From Naegleria gruberi (Eukaryota), in assembly GCA_000004985.1 (NCBI GenBank), contig GG739178.1: 4,609 nt of DNA; one strand, 5' to 3'. The notes below the pieces were generated by a model. It was given only the letters and a program-made list of their open reading frames with translations, was not told the origin of the DNA and made no database searches. Below are positions 1 through 4,609 of this stretch, piece after piece; the first letter of the stretch is position 1; each line of letters begins with the position of its first letter. The translations under genes were made by a program, and so were the position numbers.

Positions 1-115
1 TGTCTGGAATATTTCTAGCAAAGTCGTCAATCAATTCATAATTCTTGTGTGATAGATAATAGTCTGGATCGGCAGAGAAAGGTTCAACGTTGGAATTTTT
101 GCTCTTCTTAACCAT
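1..115 (-). CDS. 5' end (start codon plus first 38 codons) of a transglutaminase-like (TGL) domain protein, paralog A. The CDS continues past the left edge of the window.
   Basis: Reverse-complementing 1..115 gives ATG GTT AAG AAG AGC ..., translating to MVKKSKNSNVEPFSADPDYYLSHKNYELIDDFARNIPD. This aligns with the N-terminus of the gene at 2936 (…KKVSLTGAPFSSDAEYYKTLRNYELADAHARNAPKD). Shared residues are KK, PFS-D, YY, NYEL, ARN-P-D, roughly 45% identity. The start context CACAAAATGG has A at -3 and G at +4. The ORF is open to the window edge. Confidence 0.55.
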   Translation of the reverse strand, partial: MVKKSKNSNVEPFSADPDYYLSHKNYELIDDFARNIPD

Positions 116-313: not shown

Positions 314-337
314 ATTTCTGAAAATCACCAAATGGGT
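314..337 (+). promoter_or_regulatory. Copy 1 of the 24-bp motif ATTTCTGAAAATCACCAAATGGGT, a candidate shared cis-element or short repeat family.
   Basis: It matches copy 2 (374..397) at 21 of 24 positions, 60 bp downstream in the same orientation. It also matches the inverted copy at 3305..3327. It sits 200-285 bp upstream of the paralog A start codon. Confidence 0.45.
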
Positions 338-373: not shown

Positions 374-397
374 ATTTCTGAATTTCACCAAATTGGT
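374..397 (+). promoter_or_regulatory. Copy 2 of the motif: ATTTCTGAATTTCACCAAATTGGT.
   Basis: It is a direct repeat of 314..337. The 13-nt core TCACCAAATTGGT is identical to the reverse complement of 3305..3317. Confidence 0.45.
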
Positions 398-678: not shown

Positions 679-846
679 ATGTCTGAACAACCAACTCAAC
701 CAGTCCAACCACAAGGTGAAGAACATAAGGAAAAGAGATGTGCCAAGCACGTTCATGGTGAAGAACACAAGCACGAAGGTGAACACGTTCATTGCAGCAA
801 GCACGTTCACGAACATGAAGTCAAGCCAGAATCTGATATGGAATAA
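679..846 (+). CDS. Small (55 aa) histidine-rich, Glu/Lys-rich protein, a putative metal-binding peptide. Translation: MSEQPTQPVQPQGEEHKEKRCAKHVHGEEHKHEGEHVHCSKHVHEHEVKPESDME.
   Basis: The ORF runs ATG(679) to TAA(844..846). It is the first ATG after an in-frame stop at 646..648. The context AAAAAAATGTCT is the classic highly-expressed fungal start context. Codon choice is strongly biased (CCA, CAA, GAA, AAG, GGT, GTT, CAC, TCT), unlike the antisense frame. The protein has 10 His in 55 residues, arranged as repeated KHVH / EEH / EH units, plus 2 Cys. AATAAA hexamers sit at the stop (842..847) and at 867..872. The six-frame track missed it because of its length. Confidence 0.6.
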   Translation: MSEQPTQPVQPQGEEHKEKRCAKHVHGEEHKHEGEHVHCSKHVHEHEVKPESDME

Positions 847-934: not shown

Positions 935-2337
935 NNNNNNNNNNNNNNNNNNNNNNNNNNNNNNNNNNNNNNNNNNNNNNNNNNNNNNNNNNNNNNNNNN
1001 NNNNNNNNNNNNNNNNNNNNNNNNNNNNNNNNNNNNNNNNNNNNNNNNNNNNNNNNNNNNNNNNNNNNNNNNNNNNNNNNNNNNNNNNNNNNNNNNNNNN
1101 NNNNNNNNNNNNNNNNNNNNNNNNNNNNNNNNNNNNNNNNNNNNNNNNNNNNNNNNNNNNNNNNNNNNNNNNNNNNNNNNNNNNNNNNNNNNNNNNNNNN
1201 NNNNNNNNNNNNNNNNNNNNNNNNNNNNNNNNNNNNNNNNNNNNNNNNNNNNNNNNNNNNNNNNNNNNNNNNNNNNNNNNNNNNNNNNNNNNNNNNNNNN
1301 NNNNNNNNNNNNNNNNNNNNNNNNNNNNNNNNNNNNNNNNNNNNNNNNNNNNNNNNNNNNNNNNNNNNNNNNNNNNNNNNNNNNNNNNNNNNNNNNNNNN
1401 NNNNNNNNNNNNNNNNNNNNNNNNNNNNNNNNNNNNNNNNNNNNNNNNNNNNNNNNNNNNNNNNNNNNNNNNNNNNNNNNNNNNNNNNNNNNNNNNNNNN
1501 NNNNNNNNNNNNNNNNNNNNNNNNNNNNNNNNNNNNNNNNNNNNNNNNNNNNNNNNNNNNNNNNNNNNNNNNNNNNNNNNNNNNNNNNNNNNNNNNNNNN
1601 NNNNNNNNNNNNNNNNNNNNNNNNNNNNNNNNNNNNNNNNNNNNNNNNNNNNNNNNNNNNNNNNNNNNNNNNNNNNNNNNNNNNNNNNNNNNNNNNNNNN
1701 NNNNNNNNNNNNNNNNNNNNNNNNNNNNNNNNNNNNNNNNNNNNNNNNNNNNNNNNNNNNNNNNNNNNNNNNNNNNNNNNNNNNNNNNNNNNNNNNNNNN
1801 NNNNNNNNNNNNNNNNNNNNNNNNNNNNNNNNNNNNNNNNNNNNNNNNNNNNNNNNNNNNNNNNNNNNNNNNNNNNNNNNNNNNNNNNNNNNNNNNNNNN
1901 NNNNNNNNNNNNNNNNNNNNNNNNNNNNNNNNNNNNNNNNNNNNNNNNNNNNNNNNNNNNNNNNNNNNNNNNNNNNNNNNNNNNNNNNNNNNNNNNNNNN
2001 NNNNNNNNNNNNNNNNNNNNNNNNNNNNNNNNNNNNNNNNNNNNNNNNNNNNNNNNNNNNNNNNNNNNNNNNNNNNNNNNNNNNNNNNNNNNNNNNNNNN
2101 NNNNNNNNNNNNNNNNNNNNNNNNNNNNNNNNNNNNNNNNNNNNNNNNNNNNNNNNNNNNNNNNNNNNNNNNNNNNNNNNNNNNNNNNNNNNNNNNNNNN
2201 NNNNNNNNNNNNNNNNNNNNNNNNNNNNNNNNNNNNNNNNNNNNNNNNNNNNNNNNNNNNNNNNNNNNNNNNNNNNNNNNNNNNNNNNNNNNNNNNNNNN
2301 NNNNNNNNNNNNNNNNNNNNNNNNNNNNNNNNNNNNN
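935..2337. other. Assembly or scaffold gap: a run of 1,403 N.
   Basis: N characters run uninterrupted from 935 to 2337. The 3' portion of the TGL paralog B gene, which runs leftward on the minus strand from 2338, is lost in it. Confidence 0.99.
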
Positions 2338-2492
2338 TACATCAACAAATCTGAGAGTACCATCATCAATTTCAATGGCATTATACTCGTGATCAGGAGT
2401 AAAATTGAATTCCTCAAATGGGTCAATTTCTGGCCCACGTCCTTTTCCTGCAATACGGAAAACATTTGGAACACCAGCTTGCTTTAAGAGAC
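2338..2492 (-). CDS. Exon 2 (partial, truncated by the N gap) of TGL-domain protein paralog B. It encodes (G)LLKQAGVPNVFRIAGKGRGPEIDPFEEFNFTPDHEYNAIEIDDGTLRFVDV.
   Basis: After the intron is removed, the frame continues from exon 1 as GAA G|GT CTC TTA AAG CAA GCT. It is open for 51 codons up to the N run. It carries the TGL LLKxAGIPAR-like segment (LLKQAGVPNVFR). It also carries the predicted catalytic His (DHEYN, about 43 residues after the Cys) and Asp (RFVDV, 16 residues after the His), matching the Cys-His-Asp spacing of the transglutaminase-like superfamily. Confidence 0.6.
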
Positions 2493-2539
2493 CTTATATA
2501 AATTTGCCTAAGATTCCATAGTGGAATAGAAGTACTTAC
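2493..2539 (-). other. Spliceosomal intron (47 nt, phase 1) in TGL paralog B. Donor is GTAAGT, acceptor is TATAAG|G.
   Basis: The minus-strand sequence reads GAAG|gtaagtacttctattccactatggaatcttaggcaaatttatataag|GTCTCTTAAAG. Unspliced read-through ends in GKYFYSTMES*, a stop inside the intron. Splicing at this acceptor restores the conserved motif GVCxxFAxLFxxLLKxAG. A 62-nt alternative with an acceptor at 2478 is also in frame but deletes LLKQ. Confidence 0.5.
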
Positions 2540-2936
2540 CTTCGAATAATCCAGCAAAACCAGTACAAACACAGGTCTTCAAGTAGAAAGCACAGAGAGC
2601 AAAATCATTATAGATCTTTTTTTCTTCTTCACTAAAGGATGGTCCCATAACTTCAGCATTATACTTTGGAAGAGTGTGATTCTTTCTATTAACCTTGTCA
2701 TAGGTAAGATTCAAGCAGAGCCAAACATAGACAGATCTGGCCTTTTCTTCAATATTATCAAAAGGGCTACAAAGATACTTGGAAGTTTCAGTGAGGGTTG
2801 GAATATCCTTTGGTGCATTTCTAGCATGAGCATCAGCAAGTTCGTAATTTCTCAAGGTTTTATAATATTCGGCATCAGAACTGAATGGGGCACCAGTAAG
2901 CGAGACCTTTTTGAATTTTGGAACAATGTCGGACAT
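2540..2936 (-). CDS. Exon 1 of TGL-domain protein paralog B (start codon at 2936..2934): a putative cysteine protease or transglutaminase-fold enzyme.
   Basis: The track ORF 2508..2936(-) starts MSDIVPKFKK…. It contains …EEKARSVYVWLCLNLTYD… (the TGL pre-core motif, AxxIYxWVxxNIxYD-like). It also contains …TCVCTGFAGLFEG (the GVCxxFAxLF catalytic-Cys motif). The start context is AAAAAAAAAATCAACAACAACAACC-ATG-TCC, with A at -3. The exon ends at a GTAAGT donor. Confidence 0.75.
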
Positions 2937-3304: not shown

Positions 3305-3327
3305 ACCAATTTGGTGAATCCAGAAAT
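3305..3327 (-). promoter_or_regulatory. Inverted copy 3 of the motif. The reverse complement is ATTTCTGGATTCACCAAATTGGT. It lies in the paralog B promoter.
   Basis: The plus strand reads ACCAATTTGGTGAATCCAGAAAT. Its reverse complement matches copy 2 (374..397) with one 1-nt deletion and one substitution, and the 13-nt core is identical. It sits about 370-390 bp upstream of the paralog B ATG (2936, minus strand). Confidence 0.45.
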
Positions 3328-3964: not shown

Positions 3965-4609
3965 CTAATTAATTATAAAGATCACCAACAAGCTTGTAAT
4001 GAACACAAACAAGGCATGATAAACTCCCAAACCAGATACAAATGTTGATCCGGATACAACATATTGTTCACATCCTTTTCCAAAATATCCGACAGCACAG
4101 CTACAGGCACCAGAGACACAATTACCATGTCCATTACAAACAGTATTGTTGCTTGATGAAATTCCATTACAATATGTAATATCACACCAAGATCCTTCAG
4201 CATGGGAAGCACATGAACAAATGTTAGGTGCTGTACAATTACCATTTCCAGAGCAAACAACAGTTGAATTTGAGAAGAGAATTCCATTGCAAGTGTATTG
4301 CTCACAATTGGATCCACTATATCCTGCACGACATTCACAAGTATCGACATTGGTACAATTACCACGTGCTGAGCAAGAGTTTGGATTGTTATTGGCAACA
4401 CCAAAACAAGTACGAAGTTCACAATCACTTCCTGTATAACCAGATTTACATTCACAAACATTGAGTGATTTGCATGTACCATGTCTAGAACATACAGAGC
4501 TATTGTTATTGGCAATGCCAAAACATGACCATTGATTGTCGGCATTATTAGTATTATTAGTATTACCAGAATTGGTACCATTGTTACTATTATTAGTATT
4601 GTACTGTAT
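3965..4609 (-). CDS. 3' portion (214 codons plus stop) of a secreted or surface protein with four tandem EGF-like modules. It has an N-terminal Asn-rich low-complexity linker, EGF/tenascin-type 6-Cys repeats, and a C-terminal hydrophobic tail (likely a GPI-anchor signal or TM). The gene continues beyond the right edge.
   Basis: The reverse complement in frame 1 from 4609 gives IQYNTNNSNNGTNSGNTNNTNNADNQW-SCFGIANNNSSVCSRHGTCKSLNVCECKSGYTGSDCELRT-CFGVANNNPNSCSARGNCTNVDTCECRAGYSGSNCEQYT-CNGILFSNSTVVCSGNGNCTAPNICSCASHAEGSWCDITY-CNGISSSNNTVCNGHGNCVSGACSCAVGYFGKGCEQYV-VSGSTFVSGLGVYHALFVFITSLLVIFIIN*. It is open all the way to the window edge. There are four ~39-aa modules with the pattern C-x9-10-C-x4-5-C-x3-5-C-x-C-x8-C, ending in GY-x-G-x-x-C-E. 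Several N-x-S/T sequons are present. The final 19 residues are hydrophobic, preceded by a small-residue stretch (SGS), which is GPI-omega-like. The stop TAG is at 3967..3965. The track ORFs over this span are other frames or the antisense strand of the same DNA. Confidence 0.75.
   Translation of the reverse strand: MQYNTNNSNNGTNSGNTNNTNNADNQWSCFGIANNNSSVCSRHGTCKSLNVCECKSGYTGSDCELRTCFGVANNNPNSCSARGNCTNVDTCECRAGYSGSNCEQYTCNGILFSNSTVVCSGNGNCTAPNICSCASHAEGSWCDITYCNGISSSNNTVCNGHGNCVSGACSCAVGYFGKGCEQYVVSGSTFVSGLGVYHALFVFITSLLVIFIIN

What the first reader, a model, noticed from the sequence alone, without database searches (positions are those of the whole stretch)
3965..4609. A GPI-anchor-like surface protein with four tandem tenascin-type EGF modules and an Asn-rich linker.
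The four EGF-like modules have fully regular 6-Cys spacing. Modules 1 and 2 are near-duplicates at the DNA level (CFGIANNNSSVCSRHG… and CFGVANNNPNSCSARG…), which indicates recent internal duplication. The protein also has a poly-Asn/Thr/Ser linker and multiple N-glycosylation sequons. It ends in a 19-residue hydrophobic C-terminus right after a Ser/Gly-rich omega-like region. This architecture is typical of adhesion, cell-recognition or variant surface proteins in amoebozoan and other protist lineages, and it is uncommon in ascomycete yeasts. It is therefore also a clue to the organism's identity. A finished proteomic or phylogenetic interpretation needs the missing N-terminal part.
Basis: partly seen in the sequence, partly recalled or inferred. 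Interest (0 to 1): 0.5.

Follow-up and report, generated by a model that had tools for sequence, protein, structure and literature searches.

The report
Naegleria EGF-repeat surface protein fragment
This is the tail end of an ordinary, so far unannotated cell-surface glycoprotein gene of the amoeboflagellate Naegleria gruberi: four EGF-like modules followed by a probable lipid (GPI) anchor signal, cut off by the end of a tiny scaffold.

Summary
On the minus strand, 4609 to 3968 is an open frame of 214 codons, with its stop at 3965-3967. It encodes an Asn-rich linker, four six-cysteine EGF-like modules and a hydrophobic C-terminus. Pfam EGF_2 scores E=9e-17. An AlphaFold model has pLDDT 93.8, and all its fold matches are EGF arrays.

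Two details fail. Cysteine spacing is nearly regular, not fully regular. Modules 1 and 2 are not near-duplicates: they share 54% of residues and about 65% of bases, with only one 24-nt block alike.

The window is a whole 4609-bp scaffold of Naegleria gruberi (Heterolobosea, not Amoebozoa). It cannot be extended, so the N-terminus and signal peptide are unavailable.

The fragment belongs to a very large family of teneurin/tenascin-type EGF-repeat proteins of Naegleria and Acrasis, with 2360 related clusters. At least six of these clusters are distinct N. gruberi paralogues, and four of those also end in a bare hydrophobic tail.

The tail fits most rules for a GPI attachment signal: S-G-S, a 10-residue spacer, then 15 hydrophobic residues with no cytoplasmic tail. 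Two relatives share the motif. No trained predictor was available, so a tail-less membrane anchor remains possible.

Verdict: an ordinary new member of a known kind, of low interest.

The parts
4529..4609 (-). Asn/Thr/Ser-rich low-complexity linker (aa 1-27 of the fragment, IQYNTNNSNNGTNSGNTNNTNNADNQW). It is cut by the scaffold end, so the rest of the protein (N-terminus, signal peptide) is missing.
   Evidence: Translation. 12 of 27 residues are N, with 3 sequons. The DNA has a 9-nt period.
4421..4525 (-). EGF-like module 1 (aa 29-63), C-x10-C-x5-C-x5-C-x-C-x8-C
   Evidence: The model has pLDDT above 95 here.
4304..4408 (-). EGF-like module 2 (aa 68-102), same spacing as module 1. It is 54% identical to module 1 in residues and about 65% in bases.
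4184..4291 (-). EGF-like module 3 (aa 107-142), with 11 residues in the first loop
4070..4171 (-). EGF-like module 4 (aa 147-180), with 4 residues between Cys3 and Cys4
4046..4054 (-). S186-G187-S188: candidate GPI attachment (omega, omega+1, omega+2) site, 5 residues after the last cysteine
   Evidence: Rule check against the definition in PMC10491789. The same SGS sits just after the last EGF in P0146 and P0168.
4016..4045 (-). 10-residue spacer TFVSGLGVYH (aa 189-198)
   Evidence: The length fits the 8-12 rule, but it is only partly hydrophilic (mean Kyte-Doolittle +0.82).
3968..4015 (-). C-terminal hydrophobic stretch ALFVFITSLLVIFII plus N (aa 199-214), with no charged cytoplasmic tail
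   Evidence: Mean Kyte-Doolittle is 3.1 over 15 residues. Residues 187-213 are modelled as one helix.
3965..3967 (-). Stop codon TAG

Best explanation
The region is the 3' end of a real protein-coding gene of Naegleria gruberi that the protein databases searched here do not hold. Its product is a secreted, N-glycosylated cell-surface protein.

The four teneurin/tenascin-type EGF-like modules form a stiff, disulfide-bonded stalk next to the membrane. The last 28 residues most likely act as a GPI attachment signal. The protein would be cleaved after S186 (S-G-S) in the ER by GPI transamidase, leaving the stalk tethered to the outer leaflet by a lipid.

The missing N-terminal part should carry the signal peptide. 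By analogy with paralogues, it should also carry either more EGF modules or a ligand-binding head, such as an NHL or RCC1-type propeller. The Asn-rich linker would join that part to the stalk.

Shown: the reading frame, the EGF modules and their fold, the organism, family membership, and a C-terminus with GPI-signal features.

Inferred: secretion, GPI cleavage rather than a membrane-spanning anchor, the stalk role, and adhesion or recognition as the function.
For: - Open frame of 214 codons, chance about 2e-7.
- Pfam EGF_2 scores 61.5 bits against a cut-off of 22.1, with 4 stretches. EGF_Teneurin scores 59.6 against 24.3.
- The AlphaFold2 model has pLDDT 93.8, with four repeated strand units and a terminal helix.
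- The scaffold is from N. gruberi. The neighbouring ORF is 100% identical to XP_002668256.1, whose contig is 4609 bp.
- 2360 related clusters were found, 314 of them at E<=1e-30.
- Named relatives are N. gruberi, N. fowleri, N. lovaniensis and Acrasis kona proteins.
- Several relatives start with a hydrophobic signal-like N-terminus, for example P0145 and P0146.
- 13 of 194 relatives end in a bare hydrophobic tail. These include the N. gruberi proteins P0145, P0054, P0109 and P0125.
- P0146 and P0168 have the same 'last EGF, then SGS, then hydrophobic end' layout.
- GPI-signal rules (PMC10491789): small omega and omega+2, a 10-residue spacer, 15 hydrophobic residues at the very end, and no basic residues after them.
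Against: - No signal peptide can be examined, because the N-terminus lies beyond the scaffold end.
- No trained GPI predictor was available.
- The spacer is rather hydrophobic (+0.82).
- Only 5 residues separate the last cysteine from the proposed omega site, where about 10 polar residues are usual.
- The model shows one continuous 27-residue helix, which would also suit a membrane-spanning anchor.
- Most membrane-bound relatives are transmembrane proteins with a charged cytoplasmic tail.
- There is no expression evidence.
- The gene sits on a small unplaced scaffold.
- Presence of the GPI transamidase in N. gruberi was not checked here.
Confidence: 0.68

Rival explanations
1. Same surface protein, but the C-terminal hydrophobic stretch is a permanent single-pass (type I) membrane anchor with essentially no cytoplasmic tail. 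It is not a cleaved GPI signal.
For: - The model gives one 27-residue helix, aa 187-213.
- F190-I213 is 24 mostly hydrophobic residues.
- The spacer is not clearly hydrophilic, and the linker before S186 is short.
- About 45 of 152 relatives are transmembrane proteins.
Against: - Those transmembrane relatives carry a charged K/R-rich cytoplasmic tail after the helix. Here only one Asn follows, with no positive residue.
- An S-G-S triplet sits at a suitable distance from the end, and it recurs in two relatives with the same ending.
Confidence: 0.22
2. A dead gene piece: a pseudogene fragment, or a redundant or orphan assembly piece that is not expressed.
For: - It lies at the very end of a 4.6-kb unplaced scaffold that also has a 1403-nt gap.
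- No identical or near-identical protein is on record.
- No expression data were available.
Against: - The frame is intact over 214 codons (P about 2e-7).
- All 24 cysteines and the conserved glycines are in place.
- The structure model is very confident.
- The frame ends in a proper stop right after a well-formed membrane-anchor signal.
- Lack of annotation is explained simply by truncation at the scaffold end.
Confidence: 0.07
3. A member of a fast-changing variant surface antigen family that diversifies by recent internal duplication.
For: The family is large, and the architecture is modular and repetitive.
Against: - The modules are only 36-54% identical to each other.
- The closest relatives are only 40-47% identical.
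- There is no DNA-level tandem repeat.
- N. gruberi is free-living, so nothing points to switching or antigenic variation.
Confidence: 0.03

Closest known systems
Naegleria / Acrasis 'EGF-like domain-containing' predicted proteins. Examples: N. gruberi XP_002677892.1 (P0145, 550 aa), XP_002670765.1 (P0109), XP_002676640.1 (P0054), XP_002674088.1 (P0003, 4968 aa); N. fowleri XP_044560156.1 (P0191, a member of the cluster of P0018); Acrasis kona 'tenascin-X, partial'
   Same: - The module type and spacing are the same.
- Identity is 40-47% over four modules.
- P0145 has a hydrophobic N-terminal signal-like start, EGF arrays and a bare hydrophobic C-terminus.
- The organism or clade is the same.
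   Different: - No relative is closer than about 47%, so there is no clear orthologue or allele.
- Many relatives are giant (1000-7000 aa), or have a transmembrane helix plus a cytoplasmic tail.
- The N-terminal domains of this protein are unknown.
Teneurin EGF region (metazoan teneurin-2/-3; Pfam EGF_Teneurin PF23106, EGF_TEN PF25024)
   Same: - This is the best-matching curated module type after EGF_2.
- Teneurin-2 and teneurin-3 chains are among the top solved-structure sequence hits, with teneurin-2 at about 1e-7.
- Some relatives also carry teneurin-type NHL repeats.
   Different: - Teneurins are type II membrane proteins with an N-terminal anchor and a large YD-shell/toxin-like C-terminus. 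Here the protein ends right after the EGFs in a C-terminal anchor.
- The eight-EGF model EGF_TEN scores below its cut-off (54 against 65 bits).
Tenascins (chordate extracellular matrix proteins)
   Same: The EGF module is of the short 'tenascin-type' kind. It has 4-5 residues between Cys3 and Cys4 and the C-x-C-x8-C end (definition in PMC11401434).
   Different: - Tenascins are defined by a coiled coil, EGF, FN3 repeats and a C-terminal fibrinogen-related domain, and are confined to chordates (PMC11401434).
- This C-terminus has no FN3 or fibrinogen domain.
- The first loop is longer (10-11 residues).
- Pfam EGF_Tenascin was not among the hits.
Plasmodium P25/P28 ookinete surface proteins (Pfs25, Pfs28)
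   Same: It would work alike. Pfs28 contains EGF-like domains and is held on the surface by a C-terminal GPI anchor (PMC9664031 abstract). The layout of signal peptide, four EGF modules and GPI is from my own knowledge.
   Different: - No detectable sequence relationship: no P25/P28 chain is among the PDB sequence hits at E<=0.001.
- The lineage is different.
- The present protein has an additional Asn-rich linker and an unknown N-terminal part.
Giardia 'tenascins' (secreted EGF-repeat proteins) and the stramenopile tubular mastigoneme protein (PDB 9ufe)
   Same: - These are protist extracellular proteins built from EGF-like repeats (PMC13020983).
- The mastigoneme protein is the best solved-structure sequence hit, E=8.7e-9.
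   Different: - Giardia tenascins are reported as freely secreted, not anchored.
- The mastigoneme protein is a flagellar hair component.
- The similarity is confined to single EGF modules.

Membership tests
EGF-like domain (Pfam EGF_2, PF07974) | Six cysteines arranged C-x4-14-C-x3-8-C-x4-14-C-x-C-x8-14-C (as given in PMC13020983) | tested here: met
   All four modules are C-x10/11-C-x5-C-x4/5-C-x-C-x8-C.
EGF-like domain (Pfam EGF_2, PF07974) | Profile score above the curated cut-off | tested here: met
   61.5 bits against a cut-off of 22.1, E=9.3e-17, 4 stretches.
EGF-like domain (Pfam EGF_2, PF07974) | EGF fold | tested here: met
Teneurin-like EGF (PF23106) / teneurin EGF region (PF25024) | Profile scores above the cut-offs | tested here: inconclusive
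   PF23106 scores 59.6 against 24.3, so it is met. The 234-position region model PF25024 scores 54 against 65, so it is not met.
Teneurin proteins | EGF region followed C-terminally by NHL, YD shell and a toxin-like domain; N-terminal type II anchor | tested here: not met
   The protein ends 34 residues after the last EGF cysteine in a hydrophobic tail.
Tenascins | FN3 repeats and a C-terminal fibrinogen-related domain after the EGF repeats; chordate distribution (PMC11401434) | tested here: not met
   The C-terminus is present and contains neither domain. The organism is Naegleria.
GPI-anchored proteins | N-terminal ER signal peptide | not testable with these tools
   The N-terminus lies beyond the scaffold end. 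The window is the whole 4609-bp contig, and exact-sequence look-ups found no other contig.
GPI-anchored proteins | Small omega residue, omega+1 not Pro, small omega+2 | tested here: met
   S186-G187-S188. Rule taken from PMC10491789.
GPI-anchored proteins | Generally hydrophilic spacer of 8-12 residues | tested here: inconclusive
   TFVSGLGVYH has the right length (10) but a mean hydropathy of +0.82.
GPI-anchored proteins | 15-20 hydrophobic residues at the extreme C-terminus, with no cytoplasmic tail | tested here: met
   ALFVFITSLLVIFII has 15 residues and a mean of 3.1, followed by N and the stop.
GPI-anchored proteins | About 10 unstructured polar residues before omega | tested here: not met
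   Only EQYVV separates the last EGF cysteine (C180) from S186.
GPI-anchored proteins | Positive call by a trained predictor, or biochemical proof (PI-PLC release); GPI transamidase present in the organism | not tested
   No predictor is among the tools. GPI-T is described as conserved among eukaryotes (PMC9098846 abstract) but was not searched for in N. gruberi.
Plasmodium P25/P28 family | Sequence homology to Pfs25/Pvs25/Pfs28 | tested here: not met
   No P25/P28 chain is among the 10 PDB sequence hits at E<=0.001. The resemblance is architectural only.

The most novel reading that the evidence does not exclude
The fragment could be the membrane-proximal end of one of the heterolobosean surface proteins that join a teneurin-type NHL (or RCC1-type) propeller head to a teneurin-type EGF stalk. 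In that case the stalk would be held by a GPI anchor with a conserved 'SGS' site directly after the last EGF. That would define a Naegleria-lineage class of lipid-anchored adhesion or recognition receptors. It would also show teneurin-like building blocks combined outside animals, in the opposite membrane orientation.
Probability: 0.15. Interest if true: 0.3.

Novelty: new member of a known kind. Interest (0 to 1): 0.12.

Why it matters
The finding matters little beyond annotation.

- It adds one unannotated, truncated member to an already very large family of EGF-repeat surface proteins in Naegleria.
- It identifies the source organism of the window.
- Some Naegleria EGF-repeat proteins end in a GPI-like signal, sometimes with the same SGS motif. 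This could help anyone cataloguing the Naegleria surface or GPI proteome, for example for work on adhesion in the pathogenic relative N. fowleri.
- Nothing here is surprising to a specialist.

Tried and rejected
- Extending the contig. Exact-sequence look-ups of the 55-aa ORF and of P0002 found no encoding contig. The fragment and the 55-aa ORF are not in the protein collection. The window equals the whole scaffold.
- First homology search with the single sequence. The word index found only one weak relative. The exhaustive search and a profile search were needed.
- Recent tandem duplication was rejected.
- The antisense (+ strand) ORFs inside 3965-4609 (4042-4179, 4146-4439, 4228-4464) are short by-products of the coding strand. 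They were not pursued.
- Rfam and tRNA scans of the window found nothing.
- The AlphaFold-database fold library was unavailable.
- Literature searches found no paper describing this Naegleria family, and none on GPI transamidase in Naegleria.
- Transglutaminase-like assignment of the neighbouring gene. Pfam Transglut_core is below its cut-off at E=0.0035, and there is no convincing PDB hit.

Full report
**What is in the sequence**

Reading the minus strand from the right end of the window gives one open frame of 214 codons (4609 down to 3968). It ends at TAG, 3965-3967. At this base composition a stop is expected every 14 codons or so. The chance of 214 open codons is about 2e-7, and none of 20,000 shuffles stayed open.

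The product has three parts.
- It starts, already truncated, with an Asn-rich low-complexity stretch, IQYNTNNSNNGTNSGNTNNTNNADNQW.
- It then has 24 cysteines in four modules (aa 29-63, 68-102, 107-142, 147-180), separated by four-residue linkers.
- It ends ...CEQYVVSGSTFVSGLGVYHALFVFITSLLVIFIIN.

Nine N-x-S/T sequons are present.

**Check of the observation**

The EGF assignment holds.
- Pfam EGF_2 gives E=9.3e-17 (61.5 bits, cut-off 22.1) with four matched stretches.
- EGF_Teneurin gives E=3.1e-16.
- An AlphaFold2 model built on 36 aligned sequences has mean pLDDT 93.8. It shows four repeats of the same strand pattern followed by one C-terminal helix.

Two details of the finding do not hold.
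- Spacing is nearly regular, not fully regular. Module 3 has one extra residue in the first loop, and module 4 has one fewer between Cys3 and Cys4.
- Modules 1 and 2 are not near-duplicates. They share 54% of residues and about 65% of bases, only a little more than other module pairs (36-49% of residues).
- Tandem Repeats Finder detects no 117-nt period. Only a 24-nt block encoding CFG(I/V)ANNN is 92% alike (family D4).

Recent internal duplication is therefore not supported.

**Where the window comes from**

The neighbouring ORF 2508-2936 (minus strand) is 100% identical to the predicted protein XP_002668256.1 / EFC35512.1 of Naegleria gruberi. Its only contig is 4609 bp long, exactly the window length.

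The window is therefore a complete small scaffold of the N. gruberi assembly, with a 1403-nt gap (935-2337). Three things follow.
- The organism is a heterolobosean amoeboflagellate, not an amoebozoan.
- The contig cannot be extended with the data at hand.
- The EGF gene is missing from the protein collections searched. The likely reason is that it runs off the scaffold.

**The family**

An exhaustive search of 1.84 billion cluster representatives found 2360 related clusters at E<=0.001 and 314 at E<=1e-30. The best are proteins of 1000-7000 residues with up to 27 matching stretches, each 40-47% identical to the query.

Of twenty relatives whose sources I looked up:
- six are distinct N. gruberi proteins (P0003, P0135, P0145, P0054, P0109, P0125);
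- others come from N. fowleri, N. lovaniensis and Acrasis kona, where sources call them 'tenascin-X' or 'von Willebrand factor D and EGF domain-containing protein';
- the rest come from metagenomes.

A profile search added a 295-aa N. lovaniensis protein and many short metagenomic ones. No relative exceeds about 47% identity, so there is no allele or obvious orthologue.

Relatives pair the EGF array with different heads. These include NHL propellers of the teneurin type (P0109, P0087, P0117), RCC1-type propellers (P0132, P0001), or no recognised domain. They end in different anchors. About 45 of 152 have a transmembrane helix plus a charged cytoplasmic tail. About 10 of those 152 end in a bare hydrophobic stretch; with the profile-search hits added, the stricter check counts 13 of 194.

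**The C-terminus**

I used the published description of GPI attachment signals (PMC10491789):
- a small omega residue;
- any non-proline residue at omega+1;
[quoted passage not shown] - 15-20 hydrophobic residues;
- about 10 polar residues before omega.

The tail fits with omega=S186 (S-G-S), a 10-residue spacer (TFVSGLGVYH) and 15 hydrophobic residues (ALFVFITSLLVIFII, mean hydropathy 3.1), followed only by Asn and the stop.

Two features fit poorly. The spacer is rather hydrophobic (+0.82). Only five residues lie between the last EGF cysteine and S186.

Support comes from relatives. P0146 ends ...CQNTTRISGSNINLYNKYIILIISLLFLFK and P0168 ends ...CQQISGSIQSFLSMFIVLVLILIQ. Both show the same 'last EGF, SGS, hydrophobic end' layout. 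Four N. gruberi paralogues also end in a bare hydrophobic tail.

Against it, the model draws residues 187-213 as one 27-residue helix, which could equally span a membrane. The absence of any basic residue after the helix contrasts with every transmembrane relative. This makes me favour a cleaved GPI signal, at roughly 0.6 to 0.25 over a tail-less transmembrane anchor. No trained predictor was available, and I did not check that N. gruberi has the transamidase. That enzyme is described as conserved among eukaryotes (PMC9098846). [quoted passage not shown]

**How it most likely works**

The protein would enter the ER through a signal peptide that cannot be seen here. It would be N-glycosylated on the linker and on the EGF modules, and the 24 cysteines would form disulfides that make a stiff rod. 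The C-terminal 28 residues would be exchanged for a GPI lipid.

The rod would then hold whatever lies N-terminal away from the plasma membrane. That part could be more EGF modules or a propeller head, as in paralogues, joined through the flexible Asn-rich linker.

A role in adhesion or recognition of prey, substrate or other cells is an inference from the domain type only. Nothing suggests antigenic variation.

**Comparison with known families**

The module is of the short teneurin/tenascin type, with 4-5 residues between Cys3 and Cys4. Teneurin-2 and teneurin-3 and a stramenopile mastigoneme protein are the best solved-structure sequence matches.

It is not a tenascin. Tenascins need FN3 repeats and a C-terminal fibrinogen-related domain and are confined to chordates (PMC11401434).

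It is not a teneurin either. Teneurins have an N-terminal anchor and a large C-terminal YD shell.

In architecture it resembles the Plasmodium P25/P28 proteins, which have EGF-like modules on a GPI anchor (PMC9664031). There is no detectable sequence relationship.

Giardia 'tenascins' are another protist EGF-repeat family, but they are reported as freely secreted (PMC13020983).

**Surroundings**

- The rest of the scaffold holds a transglutaminase-like gene on the minus strand. Its ATG is at 2936, it has a 47-nt GTAAGT...AAG intron at 2493-2539, and it continues into the gap.
- The start of a paralogue lies at the left edge, with its ATG at 115.
- A 55-codon His/Glu/Lys-rich ORF lies on the plus strand at 679-846.
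- No RNA family or tRNA was found.

**Verdict**

The feature is real and correctly recognised as an EGF-repeat protein with a GPI-like end. It is an ordinary member of a very large known family in Naegleria. The claims of recent duplication and amoebozoan origin are wrong, and the key open points (signal peptide, actual GPI anchoring) cannot be settled from this scaffold.

Interest 0.12; new member of a known kind.

Noticed in passing
window 2338-2936 (minus strand), intron 2493-2539: The NCBI model XP_002668256.1 (142 aa) appears to read through a 47-nt GTAAGT...AAG intron. Its last residues, KYFYSTMES, would then be intron sequence. Spliced, the frame continues GLLKQAGVPNVFRIAGKGRGPEIDPFEEFNFTPDHEYNAIEIDDGTLRFVDV into the assembly gap. 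The product looks transglutaminase-like (C-x-G-F-A-x-L-F motif), but Pfam Transglut_core is below its cut-off at E=0.0035.
   Followed up: partly
window 1-115 (minus strand): The start of a second, unannotated paralogue of the transglutaminase-like gene runs off the left end of the scaffold: MVKKSKNSNVEPFSADPDYYLSHKNYELIDDFARNIPD. It aligns with residues 16-42 of the other copy, so the two genes are tandem paralogues.
   Followed up: partly
window 314-337, 374-397 (+) and 3305-3318 (-): A 24-nt motif, ATTTCTGAAWWTCACCAAATKGGT, occurs twice 60 nt apart, upstream of the left-hand paralogue. Its 14-nt core, TTCACCAAATTGGT, recurs exactly on the other strand upstream of the second paralogue. About 0.01 matches are expected by chance. 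It may be a shared regulatory element or a trace of the duplication.
   Followed up: partly
window 679-846 (+): A 55-codon ORF encodes a His/Glu/Lys-rich peptide, MSEQPTQPVQPQGEEHKEKRCAKHVHGEEHKHEGEHVHCSKHVHEHEVKPESDME, with internal 18- and 36-nt repeats. It has no Pfam match and is not in the protein collection. It may be a small metal-binding protein or may not be a gene at all.
   Followed up: partly
window 935-2337: A run of 1403 N is an assembly gap inside the scaffold. It removes the 3' part of the transglutaminase-like gene.
   Followed up: no
relatives P0109, P0087, P0117, P0132 (not in the window): Naegleria and related proteins combine teneurin-type NHL propellers (Pfam TEN_NHL) or RCC1-type propellers with teneurin-type EGF arrays and a C-terminal anchor. 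This is a teneurin-like set of parts outside animals, in the opposite membrane orientation.
   Followed up: no
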